Positions 2,930 through 63,480 of a stretch of DNA of 64,000 bases are shown here, piece after piece. Source of the stretch: Octopus vulgaris (taxonomy: Eukaryota). The first letter of the stretch is position 1. Every line of letters starts with the position of its first letter. Position numbers and translations under genes: made by a program. The stretch is taken from contig OX597822.1 of the NCBI GenBank assembly GCA_951406725.2, positions 117,614,001 through 117,678,000 on the forward strand, given 5' to 3'. A model generated the notes under the pieces. The model was not told where the DNA came from. It saw only the letters and a list, made by a program, of their open reading frames with translations, and made no database searches.

Positions 2930-4200
2930 CAGGGGTTGGACAAATTAATGGAAACATCTAGCATCATAGCATCATAATTTTGAAATACCTATAAAACCAT
3001 CATGTTTTATTTTTTTCGATTTATTATTAGAGTTGCTTAATATGTTTTGATAAAATTGCTGTTTCTTTTCAGATATCATCAGAAAAAAGGTAATCAACAT
3101 TCATTAAAATGACAGATCTATCGGATTTTCAAAGAGGTCAAATTGTTGGCGTTCGTATGGCAAGCGCTAGCATAACGAAAACAGCCGAAATTTTTGATGT
3201 ATGAAGTACTGTCTCGAAAGTAATAACAGCTTTTGAGAAGGAGAGAAAAACTTCCTCGTCGAGACAAAACTCCGGATGAAAACCAACACTTTTAGATAGG
3301 GACCGTCGGACCCTTACGCGAATAGTTAGAAATAATCACAAAAGTGCAGCTCCCAAAATTGCTGTAGAGCTTAATGACCACCTCAAGAACCCAGTTTCCA
3401 CAAAACTCTTCACCAGGAGCTGCACGAAGCCAGATTTCATGGGAAGGTTGCATTCAAAAAACCACTACTTTCAAAAACAAACGTTGCGAAGCGTTTAGAG
3501 TAGACTAAAAACCTACAGAATTAGTCCCTAGAGCAGTGGAAGAATGTTATTTTCTCGGACGAGTCATCCTTTACCTTATTTCCGACCACCGGCCGAGTAT
3601 ACGAGTGGAGACAGCCAAAAGAAGCATTTGACCCAGACTGTTTTCTTTCAACTGTTAAACATGGTGGAGGATCTGTGACGATCTGGTGGTGGTGGTTGTG
3701 GTGGGGGCTTATAGCTTGGAAATCCGCCGTCCCAGTGGTTTCCCTTCATGGCAGAATTAATAGTCAAGACTAAGCATTTTATCTGATCAAATTCATCCTA
3801 TGGTTGCAGAACTGTTTCCGGAGGGAAACGCAATCTTTCAGGATGATAATGCACCAACTCACACAGCCAAAGTTTTTACTGAATAGCACGAGGAACATTC
3901 TAGAGAAGTTGAACATTTTATCTGGCCACCACAGTCCCCAGATCTCAATATTATTGAACATTTATGGTGCATTTTAGAAAAACAAGTAAGGAGTCAATAC
4001 CCTCCACCATCATCACTACAAGAACTGGAGACTGTTTTAGCTGAAGAAAGGACAAAAATTCCTTTGAAAACAATTCAAACTTTGCACGAGTCCATACTTT
4101 GTAGAATTCAAGCTGTAATTACTGTCAAAAGCGGTCCTACTCCATGTTAAAATAAATTTATTTGAAATTTAAATGTTTCCATTATTTTGTCCAACCCCTG
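2930..4200 (+). mobile_element. Tc1-family DNA transposon, full length but decayed
   Basis: 27-bp TIRs CAGGGGTTGGACAAA(T/A)TAATGGAAACA with one mismatch; TA on both sides. Confidence 0.93.
3109..4150 (+). pseudogene. Tc1 transposase pseudogene
   Basis: MTDLSDFQRGQIVG start, FSDES (~3550), FQDDNAP (~3836), SPDLNIIEHLW (~3934); many stops and frameshifts. Confidence 0.9.
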
Positions 4201-9231: not shown

Positions 9232-10075
9232 CTTACTTGGAAAGGGATGCGTGGCGCTCGATCATATAATAATATAAATAATATATAAATATATGCATAT
9301 ATTCATACATATATGTACATACCTACATATATATGTATATATACATGCATATATGGGTACAGGACATCGAAAACGTTGAACTCAATGAGAAACGAAAACA
9401 TAAAAACAAAATCAAGGAAACGAACTTTTTTTCAAACAACGAAAAAACAGAGTACAAGACATGCAACACAATGAATATTCTCCTTCTTCAGTTGTCCCTG
9501 TTTCGTTTACTCCGCGTTCCGAAGGTATGGACCTGACGCGACTTCGTTGAAACAATTCTTCCCGCGAAGCAAATTAAATAAAATTTGGGATTTTTTGCGG
9601 AGGGTGAAAGTCGTAACAAGAACAGGACAGTGAGAAGAAAACAGTAAAAACAAACATTGAGGGCTGTTAAGCCAAGACGATGGAAAAAAATTGTTCTGAA
9701 CGCTAGGAGGACGAGCTTATGAAGGAGATAGTATAAGCACGTTGTTTTTACGAAGGTAGAAGTCAGAAAGATAGATTCTCTGTCGTGACGTGTCAGCGAC
9801 GAGAGACCCGAGAAGGAAGAGTGAGAGAGAGAGAACGGCGAAGAGGAGTGGAGAAGAATAGGGAAGGGTGGGAGAGAAAACCAGAAAGGATGAAGAACAA
9901 GAGAGGGAGAGATCAAACTCCACGCATTCCTTTTCAAGTAAGTTTTATCTTAATAATTGCGATGCGCGCTCTTCTATCTTTACTATCTCTTCTCTACTTC
10001 TCTATCTCTCTCTCTTGTTTTTCATCCTTTCATCCAGATGGAGCGATTTCGATCATAGATCTGCTCCGTAAGACA
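9232..10075 (-). mobile_element. Diverged copy of the 59.6-60.8 kb HHR-bearing non-coding element
   Basis: Colinear similarity to 59742-60845 on the minus strand; inverted segment at ~9920-10075; abuts (TA)n/(GATA)n. Confidence 0.75.
9479..9555 (-). ncRNA. Permuted hammerhead-like motif, degenerate copy
   Basis: Minus strand CGCG-TC-AGGTCC-ATA-CCTTC-GGAA-CGCG...GGACAA-CTGAAGA-AGGAG. Confidence 0.5.
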
Positions 10076-16357: not shown

Positions 16358-17933
16358 GGCACTACCACGGAATTAGCTGTCAGGAGGAAAGTAAAAAAAG
16401 TGTGACGTCAATCTGACGTCACTCGTCCACCTTCATCAAATTAAAAAACGCAAAATTATTCCGTAGAATTTATCAAATTGAATTAATTTATCAAATTAAA
16501 AAACGCAAAATCATTCCATAGAATTTATCAAATTAAAAAACGCAAAATTAATATATTTTTTGAAATTGCAAATTATTTAGAATATAAAATATAATTTTCA
16601 ACAGAGAGAATTTATCAAAATATAAAACAAATGAAGTTTGAAGTTAAGTTTAAAAATAAATGTGATACTTATGCTCTGTAGATACTTATACTCTCTAAGG
16701 TCTCAAACACATGGATATAGATGTCGAATTTGCTCCAATAACTTTCCGAATATTTCGCCCTTAAATTCATAATGCCACATGAATTCGATGAGATGGGATT
16801 GAAGTAAATTTCGGGCTGTTCCATTTTCTCTTTTGTTGCGATTCTTCACATGCTTCCATAAACATTCTATGTGGTTGGTTGTGGCAAATGTTACCGCATC
16901 ACCAAAATTTATTGAATGATTTACGGTCAAATGCCTATATCCCAGCTGATTGAGCGTATTATACGAACGCCAGAGGTCGGAAATTATGGTTGTACCAGGC
17001 AATATACGGTCTTCTATAATTTGCAAAAGGGTGTCCGCTGCCTGATCTTCCACTGCCACTAAAAAACATCTTCTAGTATCCCTTTCCAAAGCGCCAAAAA
17101 CCCACTGCGTTTTAACCCGATGGCCAACATTATATTTTCTTCTAACAAACGCGCTTTCATCTATCTCTACAATTCGGGTTGGCCCTCCGAGCTTAATGTT
17201 TTGTGCAACATAATATTCTGCACATATATCACGGCAAAAATTTCTCCAATCTGTTACGGCTACATTTTCTATACGACATTCCTGTGCTATTCCCTTTACT
17301 AAATCTTCTTTTGCCCAATAATATAATATATCAATAATTTGTTCACACTTCAATTTACTATTTTCTAGAAATGTTTCCTTTTCTAATTGAAACCATCTTT
17401 CTACAAGGCCTTCCACATGACCATATCACTCTATCCGACAAATTTTTTTAGCTACTTCCCTCATGCTAGCTCCACATGATGTACATATTTTCTGGGTATT
17501 TAAAAGTCCATGCATCTTAAGCCAATTAATACTATCTGCTGTTGTAGCGGTGGCGATGGCAATATCGCGGTGATTAATTCCTTTTACACTTTCGGTGGTG
17601 GTAGTGGTGGTCATTAGTGGTCATTGGTCATGCTGATTGGTGTATGTGATCGCGGTGGTGGTCATTTGTGCAGATTTGGTGTGATTTCTTTTCTAAAAAC
17701 AATAAGGAATAATGCAAGAATATATTTATTTATAAAGTTTAAACAGAACATGGAATGAAATGTATTTATCTATAAACTTTAAACTGAACTTCAATTGTTT
17801 TATAAACCTGACAGCGTAGTGGTACGTAAATAAACGGCGTAAATTAACGAAGGTATAAACCTGACGTAAATACACGAAGTTGACGTCAGATTTTTCTACT
17901 TTCACTTCTGACAGCTAATACCATGACAGTGCC
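16358..17933 (-). mobile_element. Merlin (IS1595/ISXO2-like) DNA transposon
   Basis: ~54-bp imperfect TIRs starting GGCACT; 8-bp TSD CGTCTACC at 16350-16357 and 17934-17941; internal tandem repeats at 16437-16552. Confidence 0.92.
16703..17614 (-). pseudogene. Merlin/ISXO2-like DDE transposase with N-terminal Zn-ribbon, broken by two compensating frameshifts
   Basis: Motifs VEIDES, RKYNVG, WVFG, GTTIISDLWRSY, HLTVNHS, TNHIECLW; CTSC upstream; an alternative frame at ~17370-17445 reads DRVIWSCGRPCRKMVSIRKG. Confidence 0.88.
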
Positions 17934-24549: not shown

Positions 24550-25933
24550 TGAAAACTCACAGCTTATTTTGCTGGGTATGATGGAAAGTGTCAGCCGTCC
24601 ACAGCCAGCTGACGAAGGTGACACTTGTTTACTGGTCAGGCTTCAAGAATTCTTGCAGTTCCAAGCAATACTGGTTTTTGTAGGTGTTCTACCTTCACAC
24701 TTGCACCAGTCTTTTTCATCCATGTTGGTAGCTGTGTGCTGATACTTTCAAGTACACCATTGGTATCACGTCTACACTCTTCATTGACCACAACCTTCGT
24801 ACTTCCCACTTTAAATCGTTGCAGTTGTTTATTTTTTCTTCTTCTTTCACATTGATCTTGTTGTAAACCAGGGCATGCTAGGTCGATAATCATGCATGTT
24901 CTTTCTTTTTTATTCACCACAACAATGTCCGGTTTCCAAAGTCTGGTCAGGTGATCACTCTAGATCATTACATCCCACAGGATTTTGCAGTTCTCATTTT
25001 CGGTAACTCCTGGGGTTTTCTCATACCACGTCTTTGCTCTTTGTAGGCCCTGATTTCCATAGAGCTCCCAATGGATCATTCTTGTCACATTGTCATAGCG
25101 TCGTTTGCGTTCGCGTTGTGCCAATTTCGGACATTCGCTATCGACGTGCCATACCGTTTTTTTTTCTTTGTTCATATCTTGTTTAAATCTTCCTTCAGTT
25201 ACACAAATTTCAGTTTTGATGACGCCAGCCTTTTTCGTGTGTTTCATCAGTGGCTCCTCATCGTTTATTATATACCACCCTAGGCTGTTTTCCTCTGCTT
25301 CGATACAGTCAAGGCAACTGATCAAACCTCCCCCACTCTTTATTTTGGACAAGTATAGCCAATCAGTTTCACTCTTAGGGTGGAGGCTCCGTGTACTGTC
25401 AACATTTTTCTGGGCATGGTATCCATTTTCTTCGTTTCTCTCTTTTGCCATTTTATAATTCCTGCTCCATACCGAGGTGATGCTAACTGCTTGGATTTTT
25501 TTTCCATCCAGTCACTTTTGAGCGCAGCACCAACCCCAGTCTTCAGAAATACTCCATCCTTAGTTGCTCTTTCATTTCCTTTTCCATTATCACGCTGCAC
25601 TCTATTGCACCAAGGTATTTGTATCTTTCCGTTTCAATTTGCTTAATCAAGTCTCTCTACTCAGTAATGCTATCCCTGCTACGGACTATACCTTGCCCCT
25701 TTTTAGGTAGGTTACTCCGCACTTCTTGAGTCCAAATTCCATTCTAATATCAGTACTAAAACAGTGGGCCATGTTCACCAAGGAACTCACTTGTGTCTCA
25801 TCTTTGCCATACAGTTTCAAATTGGGATTTTTCCTTTAGTTGGTAACCCAGGTTCATTTTCCTGAGTACCAAAGTCAGAGGTATCATGCAGATAACGAAA
25901 AGCAACGGAGATAGGCTGTCACCCTGGAAGATC
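24550..25933 (-). mobile_element. R4/Dong-type (restriction-like endonuclease, RLE) LINE, 5'-truncated
   Basis: IFQGDSLSPLLFVICMIPL at the 5' end; SECPKLAQ..RYDNV..IHWEL; KILWD..PDIVVVNKK..CMIIDLACP; 5' end abuts (TAA)n. Confidence 0.85.
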
Positions 25934-26341
<408 letters not shown>

Positions 26342-26382
26342 ATTATTATTATTATTAGTAGTAGTAGTAGTAGTAGTAGTAT

Positions 26383-26462
<80 letters not shown>

Positions 26463-26485
26463 TTATTATTATTATTATTATTATT

Positions 26486-28625
26486 ACATATAACTGCTCA
26501 ACATTTGGTAGATTGAAGTAAATTTCTACTGCATCATCTGCTGCACCTTTGTGTTGCTGAGGTATGTGCAGCACTGTGTGTGTTTTTTTGTGTTCTGTTG
26601 GGAGTGTGCAAACTCTTCTCGGTACTGTATCGTGTTAATTTCTTTACTCTTGAGGCAGGATGCAATCTTTCGTTGTGTCACAGCTTGTATTGTGTGTTGA
26701 GTGTGTAATGCGTTGGTTTTCTAGCTTTGCCGCTGAAAGTTTATTTCACTGGGTAAATGCTGTATAGAGTGTGTCTTGTGTTTGTAGTTTGTTTTGTTTA
26801 GGTTATATTATTGGATTGATAGTGTCATGCGTAGGGTGCGAGCCGTTCCTAGCAGGGCTACTTTTTTGACGGTGTGTCGTGTTGAAGATCCCAGCATAGC
26901 TTCTACGTTTTTGTTCATGCGTTTTTGTATCATTCCCAATGCTCCAATTATTATCGGTATTATTTTTACCTTCATGCCACACATTTTGAATACTTCAATT
27001 TCAAGGTCTTTGTACAATTTCTCCTCTTCTTTTTTGACATTATTTTGATCAGAAGTGACTTCAATGTCTATCAGTAAGCAGGTGATTTTTTTTTACCTCA
27101 GTCCTTGATTATTATGTTTGGGCGATTAGCTTTTATTTCTTTGTCGGTTTGAAGCGACATATATCACATGATTGCGGCCTGGTCGTTGTCTTGTACCATG
27201 CTTGGCATATGCTTACACCACCTGTTGTCAGTTTTGATGTAATGTTGGCACATTGTCCAGTGGACATAACTGACTATTTCGCTGTTTCTGTATCAATATA
27301 TTCAGGTTTGGCAAGGACTGGACAGCTCGAGATGATGTGACCAACTGTCTCATTTTGCTGGTTGCACATTCTGCATTTGGTGTCGAGGCCTGTTTTCATT
27401 ATTTTGGTTTTATAATTGTTTGTAGTCAGGCATTGATTTTGTGCAGTAAGAATCAGTCCTTCCGTTTCGGCTTTCAGTCCAGAGCTTTTGAGCCATTGTT
27501 GGCTTTTACTTAGGCTCACTTCCTCTCTGTCAAGCCTTGCAGGGTTTTGGCCATGAAGCGATTTTTCTCTCCATTCCTTCTTCAGTATCTTTTTTAACTC
27601 AGTTTTCATGTTGTCTTTTGTCTCTCTGACCATTGATGCTATGTTGTCATCTGAGGTCAGTGTGTCAGTGTAGTTGTTTCTGTTTTCTATTTTGTCGTCC
27701 CCTTGTGTACAGAGAAAAAGTTTTCTTTTTCTCGTGTTGCTTTAGTACACGCAGTAGTCTTCTACTCTTTGTTTCTATGTACTCTGCTAGTCCAACTGTT
27801 GTTATTTTATAGTAGTTCTCTATCCGTATCCGGCCATGGCCTCCTTATGAGCGGGTTAGATATATTCTGTCTGCGTCTGCTTTGGGGTGGTGACTTTGGT
27901 ACTCTGTTAGTAGTTTTCTGGTTTTTCTATCTAGGTTTCTCAATTCACTGATCTTCCAGCTTATTATGTTAAAGCTGTAATTTATGACTGGTATGGCTAC
28001 CGTGTTTATCCCTATTATCTTATTTTTAGCATTAAGTTCACTGCTTAACATTAGTCTGACTCTTCTGTAATGTTCCCTTTCCTAATGTTCTCTTTCATTT
28101 CTGTGTGTTGCATTTTAGCTGCTTCGTCTATTCCTAGACATTTGTATGGGTAGTTGTTGTCTAATCCTCTAATTTCTGTGTCTATGCCAAGTGCAGTGTT
28201 TTCAGTGCTGAATAATTTGCCTCTTCTCAGTGTGACTTTGAAACATTTGCCCAGCGCCATGTTAATTCCGATGTTTTTGCCGAAATTATGGACAGTTTTG
28301 ATAAGGCTTCTCTGTTCCATGGTGCTTTTAGCGAAACGTTTTAGGTCATCCATGTACAGGAAATGGCTTATTTTTTGTCCATAGCACCTATAACCCATGG
28401 TGGTTTCGTTTAACAAGTTTGTTGGCGGGGTCAGAGACAGGCAGAAAAGCTGGGGTGACACTGAGTATCCCTGGAAAATCTCTCTTTTTACGGGTACAGG
28501 GTAGGTTTTAATAACTTGTAAGTCACTTTTTAATGTTATACCAGTTTTCCAGTTTGCCATTGCATGCTTAATGTCTTTTAGTAGTAGTGGGGTTACCTTA
28601 TTTGTGTTGAGAATTTCTAGTATCC
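26486..28625 (-). mobile_element. R4/Dong-type LINE, 5'-truncated and decayed
   Basis: IFQG.SVSP.LFCLSL, ISHFLYMDDLK, LKAETEGLILTAQ, CRMC..ETVGHIISSCPVLA, KIIPIIIGALG. Confidence 0.88.
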
Positions 28626-28639
28626 ATGAGAGTGGAACC

Positions 28640-28890
28640 TCTAAGTTACGGGGATGTAAACATACCAATATCGGTTGCCAAGCGATGTGGTGGTGAGGGG
28701 ACAAACACAGACTCAAAAAACACACACATAAATATATACGACGGGTTTCTCTCAGTTTCCGTCTACCAAATCCCCTCACTAGGCTTTGGTCGGCCCGAGG
28801 CAATAGTAAACGACACTTATTCAAGGTGCCACTCAGTGGGACTGAACCCAGAACCCTGTGGTTGGAAAGCAAGCTTCTTATCACTCAGCC
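28640..28890 (-). mobile_element. SINE family C, partial
   Basis: Matches the family C head and body. Confidence 0.8.
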
Positions 28891-45573: not shown

Positions 45574-47238
45574 TTGCGGCCAAAATGTTCAGAACGGCAT
45601 TGTTTTCGCCAGAAAAGTAGGTACAAGTTTTTATCTAAGTTGTTTTATATTCTATAATTTTCACACACAATAAATACAATATCAATTGTTATTGTCTGAG
45701 AGGATAATACAAAAGTTATGGATGATTTAGTGATTTACTGCAAAACCCATGGCGGCCAAAATGATCAGAACGGTTGCTTTTACTCCGTGTTTTAGTATAT
45801 TTAACTGGCGAATTCTAATGTTTTGAATTTGTTTATGTGATGGTTCGTTTACTAAACATTAGTAAGAATATCTGCAGTGTACCTTGTGTATCTAGCACTC
45901 GCTTCTTTATTTGGAAGCCTTTTAATGTATTTATTTATATATATATATATAATGCCACTTACTCCGTTACCAATTCGTCAGCAGATTATTAAGCTTCGAA
46001 AGAAGGATAATTTAAATATTGGCTCTATTGTAAAGATTGTTAACAAGTCAAAAAGTGTTGTTCACGGTATTCTTAAGGTCTTCGATGATTGTGGTTCATG
46101 TGAAGCAAGAAAGTCTACAGGTAGGCCAAGAAAAACGACCAAGAGAGAAGATCGTGCTATGGTAAAGTTGGTTAAAAAGGACAGATTTAAAACTGCTGCT
46201 GCTGTTTCTCGGGAAATGAGCATTGTATTGAAGAAAACTTTATCTCGAAAAACTGTGTCTCGTCGTTTAGTTGAACATGACCTACAAGCAAGAGCACCTG
46301 CAGTGAAGCCACTGATCAGCTCCAAAAATAAAAAGTGTCGTCTTACCTTTGCAACCGAACATGTGTTGTGGTCTCAAGAAAAATGGCAAACGGTGCATTT
46401 CAGTGATGAATCTAACTTTATGTTATTTGGCTGAGATGGGAAAAGGTACGTTCGTTGAAAAGTAGGTGAAAAATTGTCGCCTAAATGCCTTAAGACTAGT
46501 GTTAAATTCGGTGGAGGAAGTGTCATGGTTTGGGGGATGATATCTGGAGATGGTGTGGGCTCTTTGGTGCGATTACATGGACAGGTAAATGCAGGAGTTT
46601 ATAAACAACTTGTAAAAGATCATGTCTGGCCTGTGCTGAGAAATTCAACTAAGCGACCACCCATATTCATGCAGGACAATGTCCCATGTCACAAGGCTAA
46701 GGTGGTCATGAACTTCCTCAAGGCTGAAAAGGTTATTGTTATGGATTGGCCTGCTCAAAGCCCAGATCTCAATCCTATTGAAAATGTGTGGAATATTCTA
46801 GGAGAACGTTTGAAAGCCAGAAATCCTAAAACAACCGAGCAATTATGGAATGCCCTTCAGGAAGAATGGAATAAGATCACCCAGCAAGAAATTGAAAATT
46901 TAATTTCCTCATGCAGTCGAAGATGTCAAAGTGTGATTGAAGCTAAAGGGCTTCACACTAAATATTAAATAATTCCAGTATTCTCTGTCATTTTTGATTA
47001 TTTTGTTATTTTGTCAACCGTTCTGATCCTTTTGGCCACCATGGGTTTTGCAGTAAATCACTAAATCATCGATAACTTTTGTATTATCCTCTCAAATTAC
47101 ACCAAAATCTCAGACAATAACAATTAGTATTATATTTATTGCGTATGAAGATCATAGAACATAAAACAACTTTGATAAAAACTTATACCTACTTTTCTGG
47201 CGAAAACAATGCCGTTCTGAACATTTTGGCCGAAACTG
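45571..47238 (+). mobile_element. Tc1-family transposon with long IR/DR TIRs
   Basis: TIRs at 45571-45776 and 47015-47238, each with two copies of GGCCAAAA(T/G)G(T/A)TCAGAACGG; TA on both sides. Confidence 0.95.
45952..46968 (+). pseudogene. Tc1 DD34E transposase, single reading frame with two premature TGA stops
   Basis: GRPRKTT, FSDES, MQDNVPCH-(34 aa)-SPDLNPIENVW; stops at 46432 and 46456. Confidence 0.93.
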
Positions 47239-49760: not shown

Positions 49761-49959
49761 TGATGTACATTATTACAGTGGAGTTCTCAGATTGCCACCG
49801 CCATAACAATGTGAAGTTCATTTGTATCAACAAATCCTAGCAGACCATCTGAAAACTCATTTTGAATCCTATGATTTACTCCGCAGATAGAGCCGTTGCG
49901 TAACACTAAAATTACGGAAACTGTTAATTTTTGTAATCATAGAGCAGACTTTGGAAAGA

Positions 49960-51615
49960 AAGTAGAGTATCGTTTCTATCACTTACACGAACTGACCCAG
50001 AAGGCTTCTTCGACGTAGCAATGGGCGCCTTCGACAGGGCTGGTGTGTGTGACCTCGTCGGTTTCTTCACTCTAGAAAAAGAAATTCCCCTCAACCAGCT
50101 TTGGCCTCTACAGGGATGACGCGTTGGCAATATCAAGAGAGACAAACGGCCACACGCCAGATAGGCTTACAAAAGACCTCACCAGCACCATGAACTCCCT
50201 TGGACTGAAGGTCACGATAGAAACCAATCTGAAAACGGTGGATTTCCTTGATGTGACTCTGGTGCTTCCCGTTAGGAAGCCAAAAGAAGAGGCTTGTGTA
50301 CATCAACACAAGTTCCTGTCATTCAGCCATAGTTTTCAAGAACCTGATAAAGGGCCTCAGCATAAGAATCTCCAGCTTGTCTTCGAGCAAAGAGATTTTC
50401 GATACTGCCGCTCCATACTACAATGAGGCTCTAGCTGCCAGCGGTTTCAAGGATAGGATTAGTTACACGCGAAAACCTAACCCCTCCATGAGAAAGCGAC
50501 ATAGGAAAGGGTTGTGGTTCATATCCTCTATTTAAACGTTAAAGCACTTCCTCTGTACAAATAAATTCAACAAAATGCTCAATAGGCACACCCTGAGAAT
50601 TTCTTTTAGCTGTGCACCTAATGTAAAAAAGATTTTATTAAGTAGGCCTGAGACAGAAAAGGATGCTCATAAGGCCACTGAAGAGTCACTGTAACACGGA
50701 GACCGTCGTGTATGAGGCAGAGGCAACAGGTATAGGACTAAACTGGCAAGCAAACGTGCGAAAGTATGGAGGAGAGACTGAAGACCATTTCAGGACCTGC
50801 TTTAACGACAAGTCCTCCTGTAACATCCCGGAAAGATGCAACGCCACAACCATGGCCAAGCACATGTGATCTTCGAAAGAAAGCGCCACCGAGTACAACA
50901 TAAAGTGGAAGATCCTGGATAAATGTAAACCTTACTTCAATAGCAGCAGGAAGTGCAGGTTGTCTGAAAAAGGAGCGATTTTAAAGAACATCCAGAACCC
51001 AGGCATTTACCTGAATAGCAGAAGCGAAGTGTTTAATTCTTGCCGACATAAATGGAAGTACATGCACACATAAAGCCCCCACGACCTTCACCAATACAGA
51101 AAAACACACTAGCGAACGCAGTAATGGATGCCTACAACCCCTGCAAAAATTATATATACAGTACCATTACACATATCCTATTTCCACAAGAACACCAACC
51201 GGAAAGACGCACACACAATTGCCACAAACACTTCATGATAGCTCTTACAACATAACCAATCCAGTGATGATGTCTTGGTACCAAGGGACAGAACTCTTAA
51301 CTAAATCACCTACCTGGTTTGTCTCATCACCCTTTCACGGCAACCGGAAAGCGGATGTCTCCTTTTATGTCAACAATAGAGAGTAGTCGCCATATTTCAT
51401 TCCATATTGGCTACCTCTGATGAGCGTAGGGTTATATAATCAGATTGTTTGCTAACACTCCGTTATACCCTTAGTGCGAAACCGATTGGTAAGGTGTAAT
51501 GGATCTATAATACAATATTGTACATTTTAGATTATATACCCACTCTATTGAGAGATACACGAGTGCATCTTCTTCCTGACTTATGAACTTTTAGCTTTTA
51601 GACAACTTATATATA
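49960..51615 (+). mobile_element. Penelope-like element, 5'-truncated (RT + GIY-YIG + 3' repeat)
   Basis: FDVAMGAFD..VCDLVG, GLYRDDAL, VDFLDVTL; VVYEA..KYGGETE..F; LNSRSEVFNSCRHK; ends at (TA)n. Confidence 0.9.
51412..51496 (+). ncRNA. Type I hammerhead ribozyme in the PLE 3' region
   Basis: TACCT-CTGATGA-G..stem II (AGGG/CCCT)..C-GAAA-CC-GATT-GG-TA-AGGTG; core fully canonical, GUA site at 51489-51491. Confidence 0.8.
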
Positions 51616-51616
51616 A

Positions 51617-51673
<57 letters not shown>

Positions 51674-59578: not shown

Positions 59579-59637
<59 letters not shown>

Positions 59638-59746
59638 TACTTGGAGAAAAGAAACGAAACGACGCTAGGGCGCTCAGTCATATAATAATTTGACAAATAA
59701 AATATATGCATACATACATATATGTACGTACCTACATCTACAAGGA

Positions 59747-59823
59747 CTGGTTCGACTGGATCGTGTTCCGTCCTTACCTTCGAAACACGCATTGAGTCGA
59801 ACCAGGGACAGCTGATGAAGGGG
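59747..59823 (+). ncRNA. Non-circularly permuted hammerhead-like ribozyme, copy 1
   Basis: CGTG-TT-CCGTCC-TTA-CCTTC-GAAA-CACG...GGACAG-CTGATGA-AGGGG, inside an 11-bp stem CTGGTTCGACT/AGTCGAACCAG. Confidence 0.6.
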
Positions 59824-59945
59824 AATATTCCTTGTATTGTTTGTCTTGTACTCTGTTTTTTCGTTGTTGAAAAAAGTCCGTTTCTTAGTTTGTTTTTATG
59901 TTTTCCTTTCTCGTTGTGTTCTACGTTTAATTGTGGGGTCCTGTA

Positions 59946-60008
<63 letters not shown>

Positions 60009-60550
60009 ATATACACGTAGATGTAGGTACGTACATACATGTATGTATGCATTTATTTTATTTATTAAATCATTATATGACTGAGCGCCCTCGCATCGCT
60101 TCGTTTCTTTTCTCCAAGTAAGTTTTTATATATAATTATGACGCGAACTCTGTAACCCTTTGCTTGACCTTTCCTTCCTTCCTTTCTGTCCGTCTTCCTC
60201 TTTGCCTGTCTCTCTCCTTCTTATTTTTCACCCTTTCTGGTTTCCTTTCCCCCCTCTCTTTCTCTCTCTCTCTCACTCCTCCTCATCTCTCTCACTGCCG
60301 AGTCGACTACCAACTTCCTTTCGCTCACAGCTTTCTACAAGTCAACAACGACTTTTTCTTACGCTCCGAATTTTTCCATCATCTAGGCTTAAAAAAGCCC
60401 TCAATGTTGGTTTCATTGTCCTGTTTTTATTCTTTATGTGTACTGTATTTTTATTTGTATTGCTTTTACGTCCTGTTCTTGTCACATTTTTTTCTTTCCT
60501 TGTTTTACCCCTCTGCAAAGGCATTTTATTTAATTCTTTTGCAGGAAGGA

Positions 60551-60627
60551 CTAGTTAGACCGGATCGTGTTCTGTCCTTACCTTCGAAACACGCATTGAG
60601 TCGAACCAGGGACAGCTGATGAAGGGG
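60551..60627 (+). ncRNA. Non-circularly permuted hammerhead-like ribozyme, copy 2
   Basis: CGTG-TT-CTGTCC-TTA-CCTTC-GAAA-CACG...GGACAG-CTGATGA-AGGGG; perfect 6-bp stem I. Confidence 0.65.
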
Positions 60628-60972
60628 AATATTCCTTGTATTGTTTGTCTTGTACCCTGTTTTTTCGTTGTTAAAAAAGTCCGTTTCCTTGTTTGTTTTT
60701 ATGTTTTCGTTTCTCGTTGTGTTCTACGTTTAATTGTGGGGTCCTGTACTCATATATATATATGCATGTATATATACACGTAGATGTAGGTACGTACATA
60801 TATGTATGTATGTATGCATATATTATATTTATTAAATTATATATATATATATATATATATAGATAGATAGATAAATACTAAGCGATTATGATAGTATGGA
60901 GCATGCTTTCTATAAAATAGAGATCAAGGAGTAGATTATTGTATGTTTTTGTGCAAAGTTTTAGGAGAAAGA

Positions 60973-61271
60973 GTGGAGGCGCAATGGCCCAGTGGTTAGG
61001 GCAGCGGACTCGCGGTCGGAGGATCGCGGTTTCGAATCTCAGACCGGGTGTTGTGTGTGTTTATTGAACGAAAACATCTAAAACTCCACGAGCCTCCAGC
61101 AGGGTGGTGGCGACCCCTGTTGTACTCTTTCGCCCCAACTTTCTCTCACTCTTTCTTCCTGTTTCTTGAGTAATGCTGCGATGGACTGGCGTCCCGTCCA
61201 GCTGGGGGGGGGATACACCACAGAAACCGGTAAACGGGGCCCATGAGCCTGGCTAGGCTTGAAACGGGTGA
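60973..61271 (+). mobile_element. SINE family A with 13-bp TSD
   Basis: TTTAGGAGAAAGA at 60960-60972 and 61272-61284. Confidence 0.9.
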
Positions 61272-63159: not shown

Positions 63160-63480
63160 CGTGGTACTCCGTCGGTTACAGTATGCTCGTGAAATTAATG
63201 TGCAAGTGTACCCGGACCGTAGTTCTCGAGGAGATTCAGCGTGACACAGTGTGTGACAAGGCTGGCCACTTTGAAATACAAGTACAACAGAAACGGGAAG
63301 AAAGAGTGAGAGAAAGTTGTGGTGAAAGAGTACAGCAGGGTTCGCCTCTCTCCTACCGGAGCATCGTGGAGCTTTAGGTGTTTTCGCTCAATAAACATTC
63401 ACAACGCCCGGTCAGGGAATTGCAACTTCGATCCTACGACCGTGAGTCCGCTGCCCTAACCACTGGACCATTGCGCCTGT
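63160..63480 (-). mobile_element. SINE with a family A head and a family D-type tail
   Basis: 63290-63480 matches family A; 63160-63290 matches 1517-1645. Confidence 0.75.

What the first reader, a model, noticed from the sequence alone, without database searches (positions are those of the whole stretch)
59632..60845. 804-nt ribozyme-to-ribozyme non-coding unit (retrozyme-like element)
Seen: two copies of the permuted HHR lie exactly 804 nt apart (predicted cuts at 59767 and 60571) with no credible ORF between them. A ~110-bp inverted segment sits at the 5' end and (TA)n flanks both sides. Known: a partial tandem repeat plus a 5' inversion is typical of PLE insertions, and retrozymes are processed between tandem HHRs into monomers that circularise. 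Inference: a non-autonomous family that yields a ~0.8-kb (possibly circular) RNA and is mobilised by a PLE reverse transcriptase.
Basis: partly seen in the sequence, partly recalled or inferred. Interest (0 to 1): 0.72.

Follow-up and report, generated by a model that had tools for sequence, protein, structure and literature searches.

The report
Core-opened hammerhead in parasitic retroelement
This stretch is one copy of an abundant non-coding jumping repeat that carries the conserved letters of a hammerhead self-cutting RNA in a scrambled order, also seen in the tails of two kinds of protein-coding jumping genes in the same genome; the RNA likely cuts itself and would then close into a circle that a borrowed reverse transcriptase likely copies back into DNA.

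Summary
Observation confirmed: two hammerhead-like motifs 804 nt apart, a ~110-nt inverted 5' arm, (TA)n flanks, no credible ORF. It is a copy of an abundant non-autonomous retroposon (1919 exact cores genome-wide, 0 in control; 4 of 60 sampled loci have two cores). The motif is not a type I-III hammerhead. Blocks run S-G-C (non-circular permutation), and stem II is formed by a strand upstream of the cut site, so the core is opened between A9 and G10.1 by two extra helices. The pairings hold with different letters across unrelated families. The same fold ends Naiad Penelope-like elements and a young, intact REL-endonuclease LINE in this genome that also forms partial tandems and an inversion at TA. 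So the anatomy does not single out a PLE as mobiliser, and no partner was found. Both halves of a tandem are more alike (3.4%) than copies from different insertions (6.2%), as expected if one RNA is copied twice; a circle is plausible but unshown. At this locus the upstream ribozyme is damaged. Cleavage is untested. This scan reached the same ribozyme reading earlier on other DNA.

The parts
59582..59633 (.). (TA)n at the 5' flank (target microsatellite)
59632..59741 (-). Inverted arm, reverse complement of 60017-60126; its outer end is the family's distal 3' end (about unit position 390)
   Evidence: 101/110 identical
59742..60545 (+). One full 804-nt unit (ribozyme, U-rich segment, internal (TA)n, tail, pyrimidine-rich body); no ORF
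59741..59836 (+). 5' ribozyme copy, damaged: G10.1 and closing helix lost at the inversion junction, C.A mismatch in stem I at 59769; predicted cut after 59767
59949..60013 (.). Internal (TA)n tract, much shorter in the 3' copy
60540..60640 (+). 3' ribozyme copy, core intact: closing helix 60540-43/60637-40; stem II 60545-49/60581-85; stem I-II linking helix 60551-60/60600-09 (two mismatches in this copy); stem III 60566-70/60589-93; predicted cut after 60571; stem I 60572-77/60610-15; GAAA 60586-89; CUGAUGA 60616-22; hairpin 60623-36
60546..60840 (+). Partial second unit (unit positions 1 to about 337), ending at the commonest 3' end of the family
60838..60860 (.). (TA)n at the 3' flank
   Evidence: sequence

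Best explanation
This is a partial-tandem insertion of a non-coding retroposon family whose ~0.8-kb unit carries a predicted hammerhead with a scrambled strand order and an opened core; the ribozyme likely cuts multimeric transcripts to unit length and would religate them into a circle, which a reverse transcriptase borrowed from a coding retroelement likely copies, priming at TA-like sites, for more than one round. Shown: the repeat anatomy, family size, strand order, conserved pairings, two clustered TA-like 3' ends, and that both halves of a tandem are more alike than copies from different insertions. Inferred: cleavage, ligation, the circle, internal priming, and a second priming event as source of the inverted arm. 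The partner is not identified; candidates in this genome are a young REL-endonuclease LINE with the same fold, a very abundant young PLE with a C-terminal GIY-YIG domain, and (now decayed) Naiads.
For: Family: 3005 first-look candidates, best 40 scored at 94-100%; 1919 exact S-G-C cores, 0 for the reversed pattern (12 of the first 100 listed are the Naiad type). Fold: in 63 aligned copies 90.9% of cells pair, 12 of 36 pairs show two-sided changes, slid controls 40-49%; linking helix 6 of 10 pairs with two-sided changes; closing helix CG in 40, UA in 17. Upstream strand beats the post-core strand as stem II partner in 62 of 63 (median -7.3 vs -3.1 kcal/mol). In metagenome hits with stem I>=5 and III>=4, the upstream strand pairs >=4 bp in 36 of 43, the post-core strand in 0 of 43; 15 of 20 hand-picked representatives pass the descriptor, with about ten different stem II sequences, each starting G-C. 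Coding carriers in G000: Naiad RT fragments are followed by the Naiad-type motif in 16 of 30 and 9 of 36 loci; REL endonuclease hits by motif-like DNA in 28 of 30; 12 of 12 fetched young REL copies carry the core, 5 as partial tandems 99.2-99.8% identical, 1 with an inverted copy. One RNA copied twice: in 10 tandems within-insertion difference 52/1516 (3.4%) against 6.2-6.4% between insertions, with no separate 5'-copy and 3'-copy lineages; shared minority variants 2.1% vs 0.5%. 3' ends: 25 of 28 best-hit copies stop after one of two landmarks and 28 of 28 are followed by TA repeats. Most copies read through the cut site, which a cut linear monomer could not template.
Against: No cleavage or ligation assay exists here. 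Eckert et al. assume block C (CUGAnGA plus its stem II strand) cannot be interrupted by more than 1-2 nt; here it is. The core letters and the first stem I and III pairs were part of my search patterns, so their invariance is circular. Within this family stem II itself shows almost no two-sided change, and covariation counts include changes inherited within subfamilies. 5' truncations are not enriched at the cut site: 2 of 24 places start exactly there, 12 of 24 at a TA-like linker (counted by eye from the first 100 rows). Only 4 of 60 sampled loci have two cores and no long arrays were seen. Homogenised tandems can also come from template jumping or gene conversion; n is 10, picked by likeness to the window's body, and one (L254) shows no within-insertion excess. 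The monomer is 36% GC and its minimum-energy fold is dominated by TA repeats, with large open regions, unlike the highly self-paired retrozyme circles described in PMC7229834. The 5' ribozyme at this locus is damaged.
Confidence: 0.5

Rival explanations
1. The ribozyme is real and cuts, but only to process read-through transcripts; the tandem comes from uncut linear precursors or from the RT jumping back to the same linear RNA, as usually assumed for PLE pseudo-LTRs. No circle.
For: Partial tandem, inverted 5' copy, one-sided tail and TA targets are the described PLE anatomy (PMC8557442 passages); non-autonomous PLE derivatives with pLTRs are known. Most copies are single, 5'-truncated. Template jumping also homogenises both halves.
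Against: An efficient ribozyme inside every unit would remove the template for read-through copies unless ends are rejoined; 3' ends sit at internal TA-like sites rather than one RNA end; a three-unit run exists (L268).
Confidence: 0.3
2. In this family the active fold is an ordinary type-SGC hammerhead: the G-run after CUGAUGA (with 1-3 extra nt) is the stem II strand, and the upstream strand is an inhibitor or switch.
For: The post-core G-run can pair 4 bp (two G.U) in 96.8% of cells; an extra A at that place occurs in the minimal motif of the abundant PLE here, and a reference title reports an extra core nucleotide in a viroid hammerhead (title only).
Against: No two-sided change in that helix; it is weaker in 62 of 63 copies and competes with a hairpin; in Naiad, REL and metagenome families the post-core strand pairs 0-3 bp while the upstream strand pairs 4-6 bp.
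Confidence: 0.12
3. The motif is a conserved but non-catalytic structure (packaging or RT-binding signal) derived from a hammerhead.
For: Block C is interrupted (criterion); eight of nine predicted Xenopus retrozyme dimers did not cleave in vitro (bioRxiv 10.64898/2026.07.22.740005), so predictions in this class often fail.
Against: CUGAnGA, GAAA, G10.1-C11.1 and a GUH triplet are kept together in families with otherwise unrelated stems; N17 varies only among allowed letters, though the pattern required that.
Confidence: 0.08

Closest known systems
Type-SGC and type-CSG non-circularly permuted hammerheads (Eckert et al. 2023, PMC10085705; read parts 3-5 of 8 and passages)
   Same: Reversed block order; short linker from stem I to stem II; an extra helix joining the outer sides of stems I and II; all core letters.
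   Different: Here the chain is opened between A9 and G10.1 (a rotation of the CSG order), with a closing helix and a hairpin at that point; found in an animal genome in retroelements, whereas the paper found SGC in metatranscriptomes, CSG in metagenomes and, in genomes of known organisms, only one GCS candidate.
Metazoan non-LTR retrozymes (Cervera and de la Pena 2020, PMC7229834, passages; Li et al. 2026, bioRxiv 10.64898/2026.07.22.740005, parts 1-3 of 5)
   Same: Non-coding, low-GC, ribozyme in each tandem unit, proposed mobilisation by an autonomous retroelement; unit length within the 51-972 bp reported by Li et al.
   Different: Not a type I hammerhead; unit about twice the 170-400 nt circles reported; mostly 5'-truncated single copies with inversions rather than arrays; RNA circle not shown.
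Naiad Penelope-like elements and their pseudo-LTRs (Craig et al. 2021, PMC8557442; passages, metadata sheet and excerpts of the consensus file)
   Same: Partial tandem, inverted 5' copy, one-sided tail, (TA)n targets; the published Octopus Naiad consensus, marked HHR_half_core, carries the same core-opened fold, with 380 exact motif hits in G000.
   Different: No ORF and no sequence similarity beyond the fold; Naiad ORFs in G000 are decayed while this family is 94-96% alike; five nematode/spider Naiad ends read as CSG with block C intact (by eye).
REL-endonuclease LINEs of the R2 group, HERO-like (clade described in PMC4640811, passages; the label here rests on recalled motifs and earlier notes, no tree)
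   Same: Same fold just after the stop codon; TA insertion, partial tandems and an inverted copy in G000. Best PDB matches are R2 proteins.
   Different: Protein-coding (1099-1175 aa frames); no blastn similarity to this family and no 3'-end likeness above shuffles.

Membership tests
Hammerhead ribozyme (any type) | CUGAnGA, GAAA and NUH with stems I, II, III | tested here: met
   (3' copy; 5' copy fails)
Hammerhead ribozyme (any type) | Site-specific self-cleavage | not testable with these tools
   needs in vitro assay
Hammerhead types I-III | Circularly permuted order CGS, GSC or SCG | tested here: not met
   order is S-G-C; no Rfam hammerhead match
Type-SGC hammerhead | Block order S-G-C | tested here: met
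Type-SGC hammerhead | Block C uninterrupted: stem II strand directly after CUGAnGA | tested here: not met
   upstream strand favoured; a weak post-core pairing remains possible in this family
Type-SGC hammerhead | Helix joining outer sides of stems I and II | tested here: met
   helix with 6 of 10 covarying pairs, in the rotated topology
Metazoan non-LTR retrozyme | Non-coding tandem units, each with a ribozyme | tested here: inconclusive
   true in layout here, but the 5' copy is damaged; 4 of 60 loci have two cores
Metazoan non-LTR retrozyme | Type I hammerhead | tested here: not met
Metazoan non-LTR retrozyme | Expressed as unit-length linear and circular RNA | not testable with these tools
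   only contigs of runs not on record as RNA were offered
Non-autonomous Penelope-like element | Partial tandem, inverted 5' copy, one-sided tail, microsatellite target | tested here: met
   but also met by a REL LINE in G000, so not diagnostic
Non-autonomous Penelope-like element | Terminal repeat shared in sequence with a coding PLE | tested here: not met
   none among 60 census loci, 29 full-body loci, 30 PLE endonuclease loci, 67 Naiad RT loci (L315 judged a likely chance neighbour); a sample, not the whole genome
Kink-turn | Tandem G.A pairs plus 3-nt bulge between stem III and the linking helix | tested here: inconclusive
   GA on the 3' side in 49 of 63, 5' side variable; fits some metagenome families, not the young REL family

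The most novel reading that the evidence does not exclude
A hammerhead wired with its core opened between A9 and G10.1 by a four-way junction is an active cut-and-rejoin ribozyme shared by Naiad PLEs, REL-endonuclease LINEs and their non-coding parasites, and these elements retrotranspose through a circular RNA, which is what produces their partial tandems and pseudo-LTRs.
Probability: 0.35. Interest if true: 0.88.

Novelty: new variant of a known kind. Interest (0 to 1): 0.72.

Why it matters
Non-circularly permuted hammerheads were described from environmental sequence without a known host role, and the core block was assumed uninterruptible. A version with an opened core in over a thousand copies of an animal genome, at the ends of two unrelated classes of coding retroelement and of this parasite, would give these ribozymes a biological home, explain why Naiads were reported to lack hammerheads, and make the long-open origin of pseudo-LTR partial tandems directly testable with a 100-nt RNA and a northern blot.

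Tried and rejected
RNA evidence: no RNA holder listed; contigs of seven runs only guessed to be RNA hold family sequence and show no joint at the cut, no splice joint and no back-joint; contigs cannot show ends or strands, so this counts neither way. Splicing idea: the acceptor-like string before stem II (YAG|G in 57 of 63) is better explained by the covarying closing helix; the donor-like string at 60118 is not kept in the second subfamily. R4/Dong-like LINE as partner: the link in L033 is a one-off insertion, 1 of 30. Abundant PLE with C-terminal GIY-YIG as direct parent: different, minimal hammerhead-like motif in 21 of 30 loci, no similarity to the unit; a weak 3'-end score (6 of 300 shuffles, one of six tests) was not taken as evidence. 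Degenerate PLE in the window (49900-51070): type I motif, another family. L315 (decayed Naiad RT 1.4 kb before a diverged copy): intervening DNA unique, likely chance. Cut-site footprint in 5' truncations: none. First boundary census was spoiled by TA repeats and replaced by landmarks, whose inversion flag (8 of 60) includes at least one misoriented locus (L160) and whose 8 'L4' ends are subfamily tails the last landmark missed. Energy folding cannot model the pseudoknots. Literature: searches for hammerhead with non-circular permutation, type-SGC, Naiad+permut, Penelope-like+octopus, HERO+retrotransposon, and HERO/NeSL/REL+ribozyme showed no report of this fold in animals; subscription journals are not covered, and the bioRxiv supplements of Li et al. 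were not seen.

Full report
Observation. The window holds a direct repeat at 59742 and 60546, spacing 804, and an inverted arm 59619/59632-59741 matching 60017-60139. The repeats differ at 8 of 207 positions and in TA-tract length, which rules out a collapsed or duplicated read. (TA)n flanks both ends. The five longest frames over the element have no Pfam match. Rfam finds no hammerhead on the 3' motif at E<=10. Unit positions below are counted from 59742.

Family. A 200-nt query gives 3005 first-look candidates in G000; the 40 scored are 94-100% identical. A diverged subfamily gives 1457 candidates. A pattern for site, GAAA and CUGAUGA in that order gives 1919 exact hits and 0 for the reversed control; 12 of the first 100 listed belong to a Naiad-type family, and 4 same-strand pairs lie 831-926 nt apart. 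I fetched the first 60 non-Naiad loci on contig C1. None has a PLE-like frame in sense directly upstream within about 4.5 kb; 4 of 60 have two cores, up to 8 of 60 an inverted 5' piece. Among 28 best-hit copies, 17 end near position 337 and 8 near 390, all 28 followed by TA repeats; both sites read TATA-like in the unit. Full-body copies mostly sit behind a 5'-truncated piece of the previous unit (29 loci). The window copy ends at 337 and its inverted arm ends near 390, the one-sided tail that Craig et al. describe for PLEs.

Ribozyme. The 3' motif reads stem III strand and GUU, stem I strand, 3-nt linker, stem II strand, GAAA, stem III strand, linker, stem I strand, CUGAUGA: block order S-G-C of Eckert et al.. 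Those authors treat CUGAnGA plus its stem II strand as one block. Here two strands could be that partner. The G-run after the core gives 4 bp with two G.U and no covariation. A strand 27 nt upstream of the cut gives 5-6 bp starting with G-C next to GAAA, and is stronger in 62 of 63 aligned copies (63 rows = 2 window copies, 5 earlier loci and 56 of the 68 census cores, leaving out truncated and duplicate ones). Two further helices covary: one linking the outer ends of stems I and II (6 of 10 pairs) and a 4-bp closing helix between the flanks (CG 40, UA 17), next to a hairpin after the core. Joined at A9 and G10.1, the order becomes C-S-G with the linking helix where Eckert's interaction helix lies, so the motif is a rotation of type CSG opened inside the core (inference). 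The decisive support comes from unrelated families. Of 20 chosen representatives 15 pass a structural descriptor, with about ten different stem II sequences; the window's 5' copy, two decayed REL copies, one decayed Naiad copy and one old subfamily copy fail.

Coding carriers. Craig et al. report that Naiads lack canonical hammerheads but mark eight as half-core, including the Octopus one. Reading by eye the last ~600 nt of 15 Naiad consensus records (names inferred from file order), five nematode and spider ends are clean CSG hammerheads, two Octopus ends are the opened form, one squid end is a decayed S-G-C form, and seven show nothing I could recognise. In G000 the Octopus-type motif has 380 exact hits, 0 control, and follows Naiad RT fragments on the same strand in 16 of 30 close and 9 of 36 distant loci. 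Several metagenome hits lie about 40 nt after the stop of a REL-endonuclease LINE frame. In G000, 28 of 30 REL endonuclease loci are followed by motif-like DNA from three families, 6 with both core blocks intact. One family is young: 12 of 12 fetched copies carry the core, frames reach 1175 aa with an RT domain closest to R2 proteins, 5 are partial tandems 99.2-99.8% identical and 1 has an inverted copy (4 of the 12 were picked because two hits lay close, and 2 of the other 8 are tandems). I found these LINE carriers before seeing earlier notes on them. None of these elements aligns to the window's unit, so the mobiliser is open, and the PLE-like anatomy is not diagnostic in this genome.

Mechanism. 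If a cut, linear unit were the template, copies would stop at the cut site. Most read through it, and 5' truncations are not enriched there: 2 of 24 places. The template is therefore either uncut or rejoined. In 10 tandem insertions the two halves differ by 3.4% (52/1516), against 6.4% among 5' halves, 6.2% among 3' halves and 6.2% across insertions; shared minority variants are four times as frequent within an insertion. So one RNA segment was copied twice or homogenised afterwards. A circle closed at the ribozyme site, primed by nicked (TA)n at internal TA-like sites and copied for a little over one round, accounts for the fixed 3' ends, variable 5' ends and partial tandems; a second priming at the other TA-like site would give the inverted arm. 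Template jumping on a linear RNA fits nearly as well. The fold holds the upstream fragment by four helices after cutting, which would favour religation (inference). At this locus the upstream ribozyme lost G10.1 and the closing helix at the inversion junction and has a stem I mismatch, so an 804-nt monomer from this copy is doubtful even if the family works this way.

Comparison and novelty. It works like a metazoan retrozyme but fails the type I test; it has SGC order but fails the intact-block-C test; it has PLE anatomy but no shown PLE parent. Retrozymes as non-autonomous PLE derivatives are already proposed. The opened-core fold and its presence in animal retroelements were not found in eight paper searches. 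This scan's earlier, unchecked notes give the same reading on other DNA; they are not independent support. The labels Neptune-like, R4/Dong-like and HERO-like are recalled from motifs, not from a call. Verdict: new variant of a known kind, interest 0.72; fold well supported by comparison, catalysis and circle untested.

Noticed in passing
G000 loci L494-L505 (e.g. C10:113820600-113830500, C11:84626500-84635500): Young intact REL-endonuclease LINE (1099-1175 aa frames) with the core-opened hammerhead just after its stop, 3737-nt tandem spacing, partial tandems and an inverted copy, inserted at TA.
   Followed up: partly
PMC8557442 supplement, Naiad consensus file: Five nematode and spider Naiad 3' ends read by eye as complete type-CSG hammerheads with the stem I-II helix.
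   Followed up: partly
window 9260-9990 (-): Old diverged copy of the same superfamily (71-79% identity) with mutated core but compensated stems, ending in (TA)n.
   Followed up: partly
window 49900-51620 (+): Decayed PLE (RT and C-terminal GIY-YIG fragments) followed by an ordinary type I hammerhead with a long stem II at about 51410-51490 and (TA)n.
   Followed up: partly
G000 loci L193-L222: Very abundant young PLE (15839 first-look candidates, 90-100% aa identity) whose minimal hammerhead-like motif mostly has a changed core (CUGU in place of CUGA).
   Followed up: partly
G000 loci L062-L090: R4/Dong-like LINE inserted after (TAA)n; many 5' junctions carry short tandem repeats of the element's first ~20 nt.
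   Followed up: no
window 60977-61260 and 63289-63478: Two SINE-like copies in opposite orientation (85% complementary over 190 nt); ARAGORN finds no tRNA.
   Followed up: no
window 45856-46968 (+), 3525-4150 (+), 16703-17425 (-), 24636-28884 (-): Fragments resembling Tc1/mariner transposases, a DDE transposase and R4-like LINEs (labels recalled from motifs).
   Followed up: no
metagenome loci L347-L463: At least eight further families with the opened-core fold, some after REL LINE frames, others with no frame in the fetched flank.
   Followed up: partly
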